A stretch of 64,000 bases of DNA from Scenedesmus sp. PABB004. Its lineage: Eukaryota. The stretch lies in NCBI GenBank assembly GCA_014905635.1, contig JABVCE010000021.1, positions 434,001 through 498,000 on the forward strand. Direction: 5' to 3'. Positions within the stretch are counted from its first letter, which is position 1; every line of letters starts with the position of its first letter. The position numbers were made by a program, and so were the translations under genes. Under the pieces are notes generated by a model. The model had not been told where the DNA came from and searched no databases. It worked only from the letters and a program-made list of their open reading frames with translations. Below, piece by piece: positions 24,760 through 56,988 of this stretch.

Positions 24760-24791
24760 GCTCTTTTCGCCGAAAATGCCGCCTGCTGCTC

Positions 24792-24886
24792 GCCCGTTTA
24801 GCTCAGCGGATAGAGCATCGCTTTCCTATTTCCCCTCCCCGCAAGGGACAAGGCGAGGGTCGCAGGTTCGATCCCTGCAACGGGTG
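24792..24886 (+). tRNA. trnR-CCT: tRNA-Arg(CCT) with a 22-nt intron (24829-24850)
   Basis: Acceptor GCCCGTT/AACGGGT+G73; D arm GCTC-AGCGGATA-GAGC with A20; anticodon stem TCGCT/GGCGA with CCT at 24825-24827; intron at 37/38; T arm GCAGG-TTCGATC-CCTGC; TTTTT terminator just downstream. Confidence 0.92.
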
Positions 24887-25339
24887 GATACCTTTTTCTT
24901 GCCCCCCAGACCGCGCCCGGGCTTTAAGAGCCGCCAGGCGCCCCGCCGGCGCCGCCGAGCGCCGCGGGGCGCGGCAGCGAGCGGCGCGGCGCGGTTGAGG
25001 CCGCCGGGGCTCACCGCGCGACGACGCGGCTGCGCGGCGGCTGTTGGACGCTTGGTAAGGGCCAGTTGCCATCCAGTCAAGCTTCCTGGGTGCTGGATGT
25101 GTGCGTGGCACCCCAGGGTGCCTGGCGTGCGTGGGGTGTCGACCGGTGGTGACGCTGCGGTCAACGGCTGCTGCCGCCGCCATCGAGCTCATCGAGCTCA
25201 TCACCGCTGGCCAGGGCCTGCCACCAGCGCTCAGCACGCCAGCGGCGGCGCGGGCGCGGCCTGGGAGGCGCGGCCCGGGGGCTCGCGCCGCCGCTCGGTG
25301 CCGCCGCGTGCCGCCGGGCACGCGGGCAGAACCCCGCCG
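24822..25339 (+). repeat. Inverted repeat, left arm (partner 30056-30593)
   Basis: Long identical stretches against the reverse complement of 30056-30593, with scattered substitutions and small indels. Confidence 0.93.
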
Positions 25340-25481
25340 CCCAGCGCCGGCGCCCACGCGGTGCGCCCCGCTGGGCGGCCCCCATGCGCTCGGGGAGCTC
25401 TGAGCGACCACCCCCGCCGGGCCACCGCCGTGGTCGCAGCCGGGGCAGGCCGCGCCGCCGCCGGCGCCGCTGCGGGCCGGC

Positions 25482-27540
25482 ATGCAGCACAACCCGCTCT
25501 TCACGGCCGCCCGGGCGGGCGGCCCCAGCCCCGACGATGCATCGACGCGGTGGGCGTCGCCGCTGCTGTGAAGCGCGCGTGGATTTCAAGCGCCGCGCCG
25601 ACAGCTGCGGCCGCTGCTGTGGCCGGCCAGCATGCTCCCCCGGCCCCCCAACGCGCCACGGCCGCCCCGCCGCCGCCCGCAGAGCCCACCCCGCGCCCGC
25701 GAGCGCTGCTGCGGCCCCGCGGCGGCGCTTTTGCAGCTGCTGCGCGGCGGTGCCGTGGCTGCCGCTGCTCTGCGCTCTCATCGCCGCGGCGGCGCTGATC
25801 GTCTGGTGCGCCTCTGCGCATTTCGTGCGCCTCTGGGCGATTGCATGGGCGCTGGGGCCTGTCCGGCCGCGCCCCGAGCCCCGCGAACGCGCGCGCGCGC
25901 GCGATGAGCTGCTCATCGCGGCCGCCGCGCCCGCGGCCCGCGCGGCCGCAGGTCGGTGCACACAGGCAGGGCGGTCCCCGTGGCGCTCGCGGTGCTGGCC
26001 CGGCTCGGCGCGCCGACGGCGACCGTCGCCGCCGTGGGCGGCGGCGAGGCGATGCTGCGCACCGCGCTGATCGCGGGCTCGAGCGGCGCGGCGGGCCTCG
26101 CGCTGCTCCTGGGCGCGCTGCGCCAGCGCCAGCTGGCCCGCAAGCGCGCGGCGCTGACCTTTGAGGGTGCGGTGCGCGCCCGCGGCCGCCACGCCGCCGC
26201 GCCTCAGCAGCTGCGCGCGAGCGCGCCGCCCGCCCCCGCCCCGTCGGCCCGCAGACTGGCCCTCCGGCTGGCGCGCACGCGCGTTCGTGGCCGCGGCGGG
26301 GCTCTGCGCCACGGCACTGTGGGTGGTCCTGGCGGGGCTGGCGGCGGTTTTGGCCGTCACCTTTGCCTGCACGGCGGCGGGCGCGGCCGGCAGCGCTGCG
26401 GCGAGCCGAGGTCTGAGGTGCGCCTGGGGCGCCGGGGCTCGCGCGCGCCCAGCGCGCCACACCCGCAGCAGCGGCGGGCGCTGTGTGACGCGCGCCGCCC
26501 GATCGACCGGCGCCGCAGCGCCGCCGCCGGGAGCAACGCGACCTCCACTGCAGCCGGGTGCGCGGCGACCTGCCTGGACTTGCGGATCCTCGCTGGTGAG
26601 GCTGCGCTGCTGGGGGCGCGCGGCCCGGCGCCAGCCGGCTGCGGCGCCAGCAGAGGGCGCGCCTGGCGCGACGCCCGACCCGTGCGCCGCGCGCCGCGCG
26701 CCGCGCACCGCGCGCCGCGCACCGCGCACCGCACACCGCACAGGCCTGGTCGGGGGCACGCCGGGCCCCGGCGCGTGCGTGTGCCAAGGCAAGTTGCAGG
26801 AGCTGCAGGTGGAGCTCGCGGGCGCGGCGCGGGACGGCGTCGTGGCGTGCACCGCGCTGGCGGCGCTGATGGCCGCGAGCTCCTGGCTGCTGCTCCTGGC
26901 CGTCGCGCAGCTCGCGTCGGCGCGGCGCGACGCGCTCGACGCGGCGCTGCTGGGCGCGGCGGGCACGGCGACGGCGCGCGGCAGCGCGGCCGACCGCGCA
27001 ATCAGCGACTGGCTGCGCTCGCCGACGCCCTCGGGCGGCGGCGGCGGCGGCTTTGACGTCAAGAGCGACCAGCAGCGCCAGGCGGCGCTCATGGCGCCGG
27101 AGCTGCGGGCGAGCCTGTCGCCCAGCAAGCACCGCACGGCGGGGGCCTCCGGCGGCGGCGACCTGAGGCTGGTGAGCTGCCCGCGCTGGCGAGCTGGCGG
27201 GCTGCGCCCCCACGAGGGCGCAGCGCTGCCGCTGGCCCGCCACCCGCCTCTCTCACCGCGCGCCGCTGCCGCCCCCTGCCCGCAGGCGGCCGACGTCGAG
27301 CAGCCCGCCCTGCACGGCCGTGCAGACCAGCTGGCCGCCGCGCCCTGCCCCGCCGCGCTGGCGCCGCCCGGCGACGTATCGCGCGGCTGGGCCCATGGCG
27401 GCGCCGCGGCTCGGCCGCAGGCGGCGGCTGGGCCGCAGGCGGCGGCTGGGCCGCAGGCGGCAGCTGGGCCGCAGGCGGCGGGCCAGCAGCCGCTGGGCGC
27501 GCCGCGGCGGCCCGGCCAGGCGCGCCGGCGCTGGCAGTGA
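25482..27540 (+). CDS. Four-TM membrane protein A, proteolipid/M6-like (tentative family), multi-exon
   Basis: Spliced product: ..RRFCSCCAAVPWLPLLCALIAAAALIVWC (TM1), TM2, TM3 ..LWVVLAGLAAVLAVTFAC, loop SNAT..GCAATCLDLRILAGLV..ACVCQ, TM4 ..ALAALMAASSWLLLLAVAQLASARRD. The splice phases I checked are consistent. Confidence 0.7.
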
Positions 27541-53640: not shown

Positions 53641-56114
53641 ATGCCGGGCTCCGACCAGGGCGAGCGCACGGCGCTCGACATCAGGTGCGCGGGGACGCCC
53701 CTGCCGCCGCGCAGCGGGCGCTCCGGCCCGCGCCCGCGCTCGAGGGACCGGAGCTTACGGTCTCGCACCCACAGGGAGCTCGAGGAGGAGTTTGAGACGG
53801 TGACCATGGAGGAGAGCCTCGCCGAGCTGCGCAGGTGCTGCTCTGCCGCCGCGCCCGCCCCCGCCGGGGCGCCGCCGCCGCCGGGCTTGCAGGGGCGACC
53901 AAGTCCCTGCTGAGCTCCTGGCCCCCGGCCTCCCTGCCCCGTGTCGTCCGCCTGCCGCCGCCGCGGCCGCCGCAGGCGCACGCGCATCTGCATCAAGGCC
54001 ACGCCCTGGGTGTCGACCCTCAGCTGCGTGTTCGTGGCCGTCGGCCTGGGCGTGTGGTGCGCGCCGCCGGGGGCTGAGCGGCTGCGGCAATGGGGGGGCT
54101 GAGCGGCGGCGCAGCACGCGGCGGCGCCCCCGTCGCGCGCGCGCGCGTGCGCCGACCGCGCCGCGCGACCGCTCGCTCGCTGCCTCCCGCGCACGCACGC
54201 AGGTACGTCTTCACCAAGCGCGCGCTCGCGCTGACCCAGGACGTCATGGGCGGCCTGTTCTCGCAGCCGCTGGTGCTCGTCGACGAGCTCGCCGCATCCG
54301 TGGGGTGGACCACGCTGCTCATGGTCATCGCCGTCTCCTGCCTGCTCGGCGTCACGTTCTTCGTGTCACTCCTCCGCACCTACCAGTACGCCGCGGCCGT
54401 CCCCGACACCAGCTGCGGTGCGGCCCCCGCGCACGCGCGCGCGCGCGCCGCCGCCTGACCCCCTCGCCCGTCGGCGCCAGCGTGCGCGCGCGCGCCCTAG
54501 GCGCAGCGCCGTCACTGACTCACCGCGCCCGCACGCTCATCGCTCACCGAGCGCAGGCGCGCCGGGCAAGGTGTCGTACGGCGCGTACGCCGGGCTCGTC
54601 GCGGTGCTCAACGCGGCGTGGTGGCTGCTGACCGTGGTCGTCGCGCTGCTGCTCGCCGCGAGCCTCGTGTGGCTCACGCTCGCGTTTGTGTTCAGCTCCG
54701 CCATCTACATGGGCGTCGAGTGAGCCCCGCGGCCCGGCCAGCGCGCAGCACGTAGGGCTGAGGACCAACCCGCCGCGCTGGCTTGCCCCGCTGACGGCCC
54801 GCGCCGCGCCCCGCGCCGCCCCCGGGGCCACCGCCGCAGGAACCGGCCAGCGCCGGCGGGGCGGCCCAACGCCGAGGTCTACGCGACCGCGCGCGCCGCG
54901 CTCGACGGCCTCGCGACGTACGCGGCCGCGGTGCAGCCGGCGCTGCCGGCCGCCGTCGCGGCGGCGCCGCAGGTCGCGGCCATGAACAGCGCGGTGTCGC
55001 AGTTCCTGGCCACGTCGCGCGAGGTCCCCGTCACGCTCTGCCCCGTGAGCTGCTTCAACATGGGCTCATTCTACGGTGCGCCGCGCCCGCCGCGGCGCCT
55101 CGGCGCGCTGCTGGTGCATTGCGCGCGGCGCCGCCCCCGGGCAGGCCGGCATGCGACCCCCGCCCCGCCGCGCCGCCGCCGCGGCCGCCGCCCAGACACG
55201 CTGCGCCTGAGCTCCAGCTGCATCTGCAGCGAGGCCGACGTGAACGACCTGTCAGACAAGGCCACGCGCAACTGGGAGGTGCGGCGGCGGCACGTGGCCG
55301 TCCATGCGCGCGCTGCGCTGCGTGTGCGCCGTCCGCGAGTGACCACCACCGCCCGTCCCCCGCGCCGCCCCCGTGCCGTCGCCGCCTGCAGTGCCTGGTG
55401 CACGTGCTCGCGTCGCTCGCGCTCATGGGCGTGGGGTGCCTGTGGCAGGTGATGAACATGAGTGCCAACTACGCGCACGCGCGGCGCGACGTGCGCGACG
55501 CGCGCGCGCGCGCGGCCGGCGCGCTCTTCACACACGGCGGCGACGCCGTCGCGGCGGTGCTCGCGACGTGGCCGATCGACAAGAGGTCCAGCAAGACCGC
55601 GCTGCGCGACCTGGTGCGCACGCGCGCAAGCGTTGAGAGAAGGGCAGGCGGGCGGGTGCAGCGGCGGCGGTGCTCGCCCCTCCTCTGCCTTGGCCGCCGA
55701 CGCCCGCGCTCCGCTCGCCCCCGCCCGTGTGCGGCCGGCCGCGCAGGAGGGCGGCCACACCACCGACACAGCCCTCTTTGGCGCGAGCGCTGGCGGCGCA
55801 TCCGAGGCCGAGGCGGGCGGGGAGCACATGACCTACAACAGCGCCTACGAGGGCTACGTCGCGCCAGCGGAGGCCGAGGCCGGCGCGGCCGCGGCCGGCG
55901 CGCGCCGCGCGTCCTCGCCCAGGTGCGGGCCGCGCGCGCGCGCGCAGCGGCTGGCCGGCCGCGGCGGCTGACCGCGCGGCCGGCGACACCGCGCGCGCGC
56001 AGGAGCGGCGAGGCGGAGCAGCCCAGCCCCAGCAGCGGCGGGCGCGGGGCGACGTTCAACTCCACCGCGCAGCGGTACGCTGCCTACAGGCTGCGCGCAG
56101 CGCAGGGTAAGTGA
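53641..56114 (+). CDS. Four-TM membrane protein B, proteolipid/M6-like (tentative family), multi-exon; ends uncertain
   Basis: RICIKATPWVSTLSCVFVAVGLGVW (TM1), TM2 LLMVIAVSCLLGVTFFVSLL, TM3 NAAWWLLTVVVALLLAASLVW, loop CPVSCFNM..SSCICS, TM4 VLASLALMGVGCLWQVMNMSANYAHARRD. Confidence 0.72.
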
Positions 56115-56903
56115 CGTGCCCCGCCCGGACCGCCGCGCCAGCCTGGCCCTGCACGCGGCGGCGTGGCCAGCGCCGGCGCCCGCAGCTCGCGCCCGCACCT
56201 GCTGACGCCCGTGCGCTCCGCGCGTGTGCGCAGCCGCGGCGGCCAAGGGCTCGCCCTCGAGCGACGGCGGGCGCAAGCAGTGGGTGCGCTGAGCGGCGGC
56301 GGCGCCGTCAGCGAGCTGGGGGGCCCCAGGCCGCCGCCTCGCTGGCGGCCCCTGCGCTGGATGGAGGAGGTGGGGGGCAGCAGGCAGCAGCACTTGCGTG
56401 TCCGCAGCAGTGCACGCGCGCGCGGCGGCAGCCCCCGCTAGGCGCGCCGCTCGGGGGCCCTGGCCAGCAGGCGCCCCCTGTGTCAGCGGCGGAGCGTGAT
56501 CAACCACCTGTTTGACTGACGGCCGAGGCGAGCAGCCCGCCCGCCGCCTGCCGCGCCGTTGGCAAGCAGCGATGTGCGCGGGCGGCGTGGCGCCGCGCTG
56601 CGCCGACTGACCCCTGACCGTGTGTGGCGTGCGGGGCAGGGGGCGGGGTGGGGTGCCTGACCGATCGACGATTTATTCTGACCCGATAGCAGCGTGCCCG
56701 TTCTAGCGTCCTATCCTAGTCCAGCGTGCCGAGATTTGTGGTGAGGTGCTTGAACGACGCCAGCGCAAACGACAGCCTGTGAGGTAACACGTGCGCTGCG
56801 CCCAACGGCGGCCCACAACTCAAACTCAACTCTGTTCGGACGGCATTGCACGATACATGCAGGCCGCTCTCTCTGCAGCCTCGGACCGTGCGCGCGTGTG
56901 CGT

Positions 56904-56904
<1 letters not shown>

Positions 56905-56986
<82 letters not shown>
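56905..56986. repeat. (CA)41 microsatellite
   Basis: Perfect dinucleotide run 13 nt downstream of the dynamin stop codon. Confidence 0.97.

Positions 56987-56988
<2 letters not shown>

What the first reader, a model, noticed from the sequence alone, without database searches (positions are those of the whole stretch)
25482..27540. Second, divergent proteolipid/M6-like paralogue carrying CLDLR
Seen: FCSCCAAVPWLPLL before TM1, four TMs, an N-glycosylation sequon (NAT) and CAATCLDLR (CLDLR at 26571-26585) then CVC in the TM3-TM4 loop, and ARRD after TM4. These landmarks align with gene B (PW; CPVSCFNM; CIC; ARRD), which suggests paralogy. Recalled: GPM6A has CLDLRQFG in this same loop. The two genes preserve complementary M6-like motifs, which strengthens the assignment. 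Inference: a small uncharacterised algal family.
Basis: partly seen in the sequence, partly recalled or inferred. Interest (0 to 1): 0.75.

Follow-up and report, generated by a model that had tools for sequence, protein, structure and literature searches.

The report
Algal relative of myelin proteolipid proteins
This is a real, intact gene from a green-algal family of four-pass membrane proteins that looks distantly related to the myelin proteolipid/M6 proteins of animal nerves, a family that has been called an animal novelty.

Summary
Gene A (25482-27540, +) splices through six GT-AG introns into 442 aa with four membrane segments, and every motif lies where stated. It is a paralogue of gene B: four introns share alignment column and phase, and two exons have equal lengths (215 and 163 nt). 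A scores 56 bits against a family profile from other organisms; shuffles reach at most 13. It is one of at least five copies in this genome, in a family found in Sphaeropleales and Chlamydomonadales. The PLP/M6 link rests on relatives, not on A. PF01275 was listed for 9 of 42 proteins scanned, above its cut-off for one gene, and protein-language-model features of B point to PF01275 (0.93). A's exons hit nothing. CLDLR is the family consensus; its identity to GPM6A is recalled and unverified. The EL2 cysteine spacing differs from M6a, and the best natural fold match is Tweety TM2-5. Most likely role: a lipid-modified, disulfide-looped, dimer-forming membrane organiser (inferred). A is the most diverged copy, and no expression data were obtained.

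The parts
25482..25549 (+). Gene A exon 1 (ATG; cytosolic N-terminus); intron phase 2
   Evidence: GT-AG model; the start is the least constrained part
25683..25805 (+). Exon 2: RRRFCSCC cluster (C40/C42/C43, candidate S-acylation), PW, TM1; intron splits the TM1-end Trp codon (phase 2), as in genes B and C
25952..26166 (+). Exon 3 (215 nt, same length as B exon 4): EL1, weak TM2, basic cytosolic loop RQRQLARKR
26255..26417 (+). Exon 4 (163 nt, same length and flanking phases 1/2 as in B, D, E): TM3; family Asn/Trp residues are lost in A
26519..26595 (+). Exon 5: EL2 with NAT sequon (26535-26543), C204 and C208 (CAATCLDLR, 26559-26585)
26744..27171 (+). Exon 6: C227-V-C229 (26776-26784), helix into TM4 (26836-26907), ARRD (26920-26931), start of low-complexity tail
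27286..27540 (+). Exon 7: low-complexity cytosolic tail with tandem PQAAAG-type repeats, stop TGA; no family homology, so the least certain exon
53641..55612 (+). Paralogue B, four-TM core (the gene continues beyond 55612); equals residues 502-868 of public model P0001

Best explanation
Gene A encodes an intact but fast-evolving member of a chlorophyte four-TM family that is a remote branch of the animal PLP/DM20/M6 (lipophilin) family. Shown: gene structure, paralogy, family membership, and a four-helix bundle in two relatives. Inferred from anatomy: both termini are cytosolic; the Cys cluster before TM1 is S-acylated; the TM3-TM4 loop faces outward, carries an N-glycan at N196, and has four Cys forming two disulfides on a short beta hairpin. 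Inferred by analogy: like PLP and M6a it has no catalytic site or pore. It would form cis-dimers through its TM helices, partition into sterol-rich membrane domains, and organise, curve or appose membrane (plasma, flagellar or secretory). A has a minimal EL2 and a private tail, so it may be a specialised or relaxed copy. Probabilities: real coding paralogue of B about 0.97; family homologous to PLP/M6 about 0.75; membrane-organiser role about 0.5.
For: Paralogy: four introns at identical columns and phases in A and B; two of these also in D and E. A scores 56.2 bits (E 1.9e-19) against a profile of 15 proteins from other organisms; reversed A scores -3.2; shuffles reach at most 5.4 (251 of 300 reported) and 13.0 (300 of 300 window shuffles). 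PLP link: PF01275 listed for 9 of 42 proteins from other organisms. It is above the 23.8-bit cut-off for P0006 (27.2 bits, E 3.9e-6, profile 6-228 of 231) and for P0066 (same 90% cluster); P0005 reaches 23.4 bits. A different subfamily (Gonium P0051) hits profile 109-212 at E 0.0018, and the N-terminal half alone (P0065) hits 6-134 at E 0.0018. Atlas features of B residues 525-840: top three clusters are PF01275 (0.93/0.91/0.90; 208 of 256 features shared; 10 of 10 best family hits agree; the tool's calibration was not measured for parts of proteins). Anatomy matches the M6a features read in PMC8129562 and PMC3438117 (passages): N-terminal Cys cluster, four EC2 Cys, EC2 sequon. A sequon lies within 15 aa before the first loop Cys in 13 of 33 motif-bearing sequences. 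AlphaFold2 models of P0006 (pLDDT 66.7) and P0064 (83.1) give four long helices and the same short beta pairing in EL2. Homodimer model of P0006 residues 28-282 (not of A; alignment not used): score 0.58, best of 3 controls 0.00, runs agree in at least 77% of contacts, pLDDT at least 69, interface TM3/TM4. That mark was reached by 17 of 29 eukaryotic solved pairs, by only 1 of 7 without an older solved relative, and by 0 of 30 single chains. PLP/DM20 are cis-dimers (PMC9279222, passages).
Against: No A exon (0 of 5), B exon (0 of 6) or C exon (0 of 5) hits PF01275. B inside P0001 reaches only E 3.9. 33 of 42 scanned proteins, including all seven C-clade proteins, show no PF01275; many of the 33 are fragments and two are unrelated. 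EL2+TM4 pieces of P0051 and P0006 alone gave no hit (0 of 2). The unindexed search with a three-fragment EL2/TM4 profile returned 52 proteins, none recognisable as animal M6. EL2 Cys spacing is C-x3-C-x(12-18)-C-x-C, against x11/x17/x9 for M6a C162/174/192/202. No PLP structure was returned to compare with; the top natural fold match is TTYH1. A has the longest branch, 18-27% identity to all relatives, has lost the family Pro of CP and the TM3 Asn/Trp, and no orthologue of A was found.
Confidence: 0.68

Rival explanations
1. The family is a four-TM derivative of the Tweety/prominin superfamily (TM2-TM5 without TM1), acting in membrane bending or lipid handling. The PLP signal is then convergent or reflects a still deeper common origin.
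For: TTYH1 is the best natural-protein match for both models: Z 12.0, rmsd 4.4, 206 aligned; Z 16.0, rmsd 2.9, 167 aligned, chain 90-422. TTYH3 also ranks 8 and 5. Many algal members have long helical EL2 extensions. Prominin-like sequences are reported in green plants, and Ttyh1 promotes vesicle formation (PMC10659291, passages).
Against: A de novo four-helix bundle scores Z 13.4 and 15.2, so much of the score is generic. Foldseek finds nothing at E <= 0.001. No Tweety or prominin Pfam family was listed for any member. Atlas features point to PF01275. PLP is absent from the structure hits, so the ranking cannot compare the two.
Confidence: 0.12
2. An independent algal tetraspan family whose resemblance to PLP/M6 is generic (four TMs, juxtamembrane Cys, Cys loop).
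For: Only one gene passes the Pfam cut-off; the C clade, A's exons and EL2+TM4 pieces give no PF01275 hit. Cys spacing differs from M6a. Other tetraspans (LCI1, PRPH2, MS4A, synaptophysin, sarcospan complex) score Z 10-13. No intermediate lineage was seen.
Against: The same Pfam family, out of 24,736, recurs as top or near-top hit in nine proteins from two subfamilies and on both halves of the profile, collinear over 6-228 of 231. No other tetraspan family does. A separate method agrees.
Confidence: 0.12
3. Gene A is a decaying or non-functional duplicate; its motifs are remnants.
For: Longest branch in the tree; A+G+P+R make up 53%; weak TM2; lost conserved TM3 residues; no orthologue found; a duplicated, inverted upstream segment hints at local rearrangement.
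Against: Open frame across six canonical introns; GC3 0.93 with clear three-base periodicity; exon lengths kept; all four loop Cys, the sequon, PW and ARRD retained while the rest drifted to about 22% identity, which is the pattern expected from selection.
Confidence: 0.08

Closest known systems
PLP/DM20/M6a/M6b (lipophilin) family, Pfam PF01275 Myelin_PLP
   Same: Four TMs, small EL1 and larger EL2, Cys cluster before TM1, four EL2 Cys, EL2 N-sequon, predicted cis-dimer. Relatives hit PF01275 collinearly and by Atlas features.
   Different: Cys pattern C-x3-C-x(12-18)-C-x-C instead of x11/x17/x9. Many members carry a long helical EL2 insert and long low-complexity tails. Found in green algae, with at least five paralogues per genome here. 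A itself is below detection.
Tweety homologues (TTYH1-3) / prominins
   Same: Best natural structural match over TM2-TM5 (Z 12-16); helical extracellular extension; membrane-shaping role reported.
   Different: Five TMs and larger ectodomains; no sequence-family hit; scores close to those of generic helical bundles.
Other tetraspans (tetraspanin/PRPH2, MS4A/CD20, synaptophysin, claudin fold, Chlamydomonas LCI1)
   Same: Four-helix membrane bundle, Z about 9-13.
   Different: No Pfam hit to any of them; no CCG motif in the loop (tetraspanin motif recalled).

Membership tests
Chlorophyte four-TM family of gene B | Significant match to a family profile built from other organisms | tested here: met
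   56.2 bits; shuffles at most 13.0
Chlorophyte four-TM family of gene B | Shared intron positions and phases | tested here: met
   4 of A's 6 introns shared with B, 2 of them also with D and E
PLP/DM20/M6 (PF01275) | Gene A product reaches the PF01275 cut-off | tested here: inconclusive
   Only single exons were scanned: 0 of 5 hit; the spliced protein could not be given to the tool
PLP/DM20/M6 (PF01275) | Family members reach the PF01275 cut-off | tested here: met
   P0006 27.2 and P0066 26.8 bits (one gene cluster) against 23.8; 7 more below the cut-off; 33 of 42 no hit
PLP/DM20/M6 (PF01275) | Four TMs, cytosolic termini, small EC1 and large EC2 | tested here: met
   Hydropathy and a basic TM2-TM3 loop in A; models of relatives; topology is predicted, and TM2 of A is weak
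PLP/DM20/M6 (PF01275) | Cys cluster just before TM1 (M6a C17/18/21) | tested here: met
   A has C40/C42/C43; P0006 C42 aligns to profile position 6; absent from D and the C clade; acylation not tested
PLP/DM20/M6 (PF01275) | Four EC2 Cys with M6a-type spacing and a C174-C192-type bond | tested here: inconclusive
   Four Cys present, but outer spacings differ (x3 and x1 against x11 and x9). The 17-residue spacing is matched by Cys2-Cys4 in B-type proteins; A has 18 (Cys2-Cys3) or 20 (Cys2-Cys4). Connectivity is not readable from the model output.
PLP/DM20/M6 (PF01275) | CLDLR identical to the GPM6A EC2 motif | not testable with these tools
   No animal sequence returned by any search; text searches empty; motif is recalled
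PLP/DM20/M6 (PF01275) | Same fold as PLP/M6 | tested here: inconclusive
   No PLP/M6 entry among the hits; PMC9279222 states that no experimental 3D structure existed in 2022
PLP/DM20/M6 (PF01275) | Homo-oligomer, raft partitioning, membrane shaping | not testable with these tools
   Only a predicted homodimer of relative P0006 (0.58 against best control 0.00)
Tweety/prominin | Five TMs | tested here: not met
   Four TMs in A, B, D, E and in both models
Tweety/prominin | Structural match to TM2-TM5 | tested here: inconclusive
   Z 12.0 and 16.0, tied within about 1.5 with a de novo bundle

The most novel reading that the evidence does not exclude
The myelin proteolipid/M6 family is not an animal invention. 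Green algae keep an expanded, intron-conserved branch of it, and this branch links PLP/M6 structurally to the TM2-TM5 core of Tweety/prominin. All of these would form one ancient eukaryotic superfamily of disulfide-looped, membrane-bending helical bundles, whose ancestral function could be tested in Chlamydomonas genetics.
Probability: 0.3. Interest if true: 0.8.

Novelty: new variant of a known kind. Interest (0 to 1): 0.55.

Why it matters
PMC5620054 (passage read) lists PF01275 as a novel metazoan cluster, though it sampled only animals and two unicellular holozoans. PMC3438117 gives the range as arthropods to mammals, and PMC3230579 says no family member has a clear molecular function. A green-algal branch would push the family back towards early eukaryotes (or imply an odd transfer). 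It would also make the neuron-independent activity of proteolipids testable in a haploid, flagellated model, since members exist in Chlamydomonas and Gonium. The interest lies in the family; gene A is its least informative member, and the PF01275 label already sits unremarked on one algal database entry.

Tried and rejected
Pfam on single exons of A, B and C: no meaningful hit. Atlas with C's last exon: only low-score retroviral envelope clusters (0.81, under the tool's bar), rejected. PF01275 against the own genome: no match, but the controls did not ring either, so uninformative. Orthologue of A or its own database model: none seen; searches scored only about 8000 candidates, so this is weak. 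RNA: no RNA holder listed, so no reads were laid. PDB by sequence: only LPAR1 (E 0.005) and the renin receptor, partial and judged chance. Foldseek against PDB and viral models: nothing at E <= 0.001. A viral origin of the intronless members P0011/P0025/P0064 could not be tested: three short low-complexity matches, none, none confirmed. Tree: A's position is unresolved (midpoint root only, long branch), so no sister relationship to B is claimed. Loci L006-L009 are not family members (no segment above 5 bits). Literature: 'proteolipid protein'+GPM6A+evolution+algae 0 papers; 'myelin proteolipid'+Chlamydomonas 3, none relevant by title and abstract start; PF01275 2; tweety+prominin+proteolipid+homolog 2, irrelevant; proteolipid family with choanoflagellate/unicellular/origin, none of the 20 listed held the first term. 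The library lacks most subscription journals, and no supplements were read. Earlier findings of the scan: nothing returned.

Full report
Observation. The window is about 80% G+C and intron-rich. Splicing at GT-AG sites joins them into a 442-aa frame from ATG 25482 to TGA 27540 with six introns. CLDLR is at 26571-26585, NAT at 26535-26543, CVC at 26776-26784 and ARRD at 26920-26931. The modelled frame has GC3 0.93 (other frames 0.79 and 0.68; paralogues 0.96-0.98), and the disputed exon 26519-26595 fits it. Four hydrophobic segments are present, with a basic loop (7 K/R in 27 residues) between TM2 and TM3, which favours cytosolic termini and an outward TM3-TM4 loop; TM2 is marginal. No RNA evidence was obtained.

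Paralogy. My model of gene B (53641-55612) equals residues 502-868 of a public NCBI model, P0001, labelled Scenedesmus sp. by its source. That checks the splicing logic independently. A and B align with score 111, above all 500 whole shuffles and all 500 window shuffles (maxima 88 and 107). The intron evidence is stronger: four introns fall in the same alignment column with the same phase, and the exons between them are 215/215 and 163/163 nt. Searches of the own genome found three more copies: C (C2:1547-1549 kb), D (C2:686-688 kb) and E (C46:1133-1134 kb). D and E also have the 163-nt TM3 exon with phases 1 and 2. C shares the intron in the Trp codon after TM1 (read), but one of its introns could not be modelled cleanly. 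Five is a lower bound.

Family. Three indexed searches and one unindexed search returned relatives. Named ones come from Scenedesmus, Monoraphidium, Flechtneria, Hariotina, Gonium and Chlamydomonas; many are unnamed fragments. A profile from 15 proteins of other organisms scores A at 56.2 bits, B 322.9, D 99.5 and E 96.0, while reversed A scores -3.2 and shuffled A at most 13.0. The signature is C-P-x2-C-[LIVFM]-[DN]-[LMVIA]-x(9-15)-C-x-C, then a helix into TM4 ending W-L-L-x3-A-x-Q/N-[FWY]-A-x2-R. Of 67 sequences examined, 33 carry the Cys motif; 11 of these read C-[ILV]-D-L-R and 2 (A and Gonium P0051) read CLDLR. A's motif is thus the family consensus, not a special M6 relic, and B's CFNM is the same site. 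A is the most diverged member: 18-27% identity to all others, the longest branch, position unresolved. No orthologue of A was found.

Link to PLP/M6. This rests on relatives. PF01275 was listed for 9 of 42 proteins from other organisms. One gene passes the curated cut-off (P0006, 27.2 bits, profile 6-228 of 231; its cluster mate P0066, 26.8), P0005 falls just short (23.4), a second subfamily hits the C-terminal half (P0051, E 0.0018), and an N-terminal fragment hits the other half (P0065, E 0.0018). Atlas features of B's four-TM domain gave PF01275 clusters of chordates, nematodes and arthropods at 0.93-0.90, with 10 of the 10 best family hits agreeing; its structure search, on a poor model, gave nothing. 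Against this: no single exon of A, B or C hits PF01275, B itself reaches only E 3.9, the C clade gives no hit, EL2+TM4 pieces give none, and no animal protein was recognised among 52 hits of a small profile. Passages of PMC8129562 and PMC3438117 give M6a's features: C17/18/21 needed for raft inclusion, EC2 C162/174/192/202 with a C174-C192 bond, and a glycan at N164. A has the counterpart cluster (C40/42/43), four loop Cys (204, 208, 227, 229) and N196, but the outer spacings are compressed. The 17-residue C174-C192 spacing equals Cys2-Cys4 in B-type proteins. The GPM6A CLDLR match is recalled and unverified.

Structure. Models of two relatives (P0006, pLDDT 66.7 with a disordered tail; P0064, 83.1) are four-helix bundles with long TM3 and TM4 extensions. 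Foldseek found nothing significant. The wide search ranked human TTYH1 TM2-TM5 as the best natural match both times (Z 12.0, rmsd 4.4, 206 aligned; Z 16.0, rmsd 2.9, 167 aligned), beside a de novo bundle (13.4 and 15.2) and other tetraspans at Z 9-13. No PLP structure appeared, so fold cannot decide between PLP and Tweety; a deeper common origin stays open. A homodimer model of P0006 passed the tool's mark: 0.58 against best control 0.00, at least 77% of contacts shared between runs, pLDDT at least 69, interface TM3/TM4. The mark was met by 17 of 29 eukaryotic solved pairs, 1 of 7 without a solved relative, and 0 of 30 single chains. This supports but does not show binding, and it does not concern A, whose TM3 is altered. 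PLP and DM20 are cis-dimers that stack bilayers (PMC9279222, passages); M6a deforms membranes through its TM region (PMC3230579, passages), with TM2/TM4 glycines implicated in self-association (PMC8129562), a partly different interface.

Mechanism. The most likely role is a non-catalytic membrane organiser: acylated at the N-terminal Cys cluster, folded in the secretory pathway with a disulfide-closed, glycosylated outer loop, dimerising in the bilayer, and shaping or apposing sterol-rich membrane. Gene structure and family are shown; topology is predicted; acylation, disulfides, location and function are inferred by analogy. Retention of exactly the Cys, sequon, PW and ARRD positions argues that A is still under selection.

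Verdict. A real gene and a real paralogue of B, in a wider chlorophyte family that is probably (about 0.75) a remote branch of PLP/M6 with an altered cysteine loop. My searches found no paper describing such algal proteins, while one paper calls PF01275 a metazoan novelty on holozoan sampling (PMC5620054, passages). The library is incomplete and the Pfam label is already attached to one algal entry.

Noticed in passing
window 24791-24887 (+): Intron-containing tRNA-Arg(CCT) 600 nt upstream of gene A; Rfam 51.6 bits, found by ARAGORN only with introns allowed.
   Followed up: partly
window 24822-25354 and 30593-30044: A 558-nt inverted duplication (90% identical) that begins inside the tRNA gene. 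Only these two long copies were found in the genome. They bracket gene A and a minus-strand ORF region at about 28-29.8 kb and lie upstream of both; possible trace of a local inversion.
   Followed up: partly
P0001 / window upstream of 53641: The public model fuses gene B to an upstream DUF7755/CGL160-like gene. A stop at about 52917 and stand-alone B orthologues suggest an annotation fusion.
   Followed up: partly
P0011, P0064, P0025: Full-length, N/I/K-rich family members; P0011 and P0064 are called as single ORFs on 13 and 39 kb JGI contigs. They could come from an intron-poor alga or a large DNA virus; no locus was recovered.
   Followed up: partly
L003:335-500 (G000 C2, gene C): The intron between TM2 and TM3 of gene C has no clear GT donor or AG acceptor where the homologue P0015 predicts them; possibly a GC donor or an assembly slip in a CG repeat.
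   Followed up: no
window about 56100-56290 (gene B 3' end); P0002-P0005, P0058, P0059, P0061, P0066: B-type proteins end in a highly conserved cytosolic motif (T-A-Q-R-Y-A-A-Y-R-L-R-A-A-Q ... K-Q-W-x-R) after a variable linker; a likely binding or sorting signal absent from A.
   Followed up: no
window 56905-56987: Long (CA)n microsatellite.
   Followed up: no
G000 C24, C33, C36, C51: Many short matches spaced about 171 nt apart point to a tandem satellite on several contigs.
   Followed up: no
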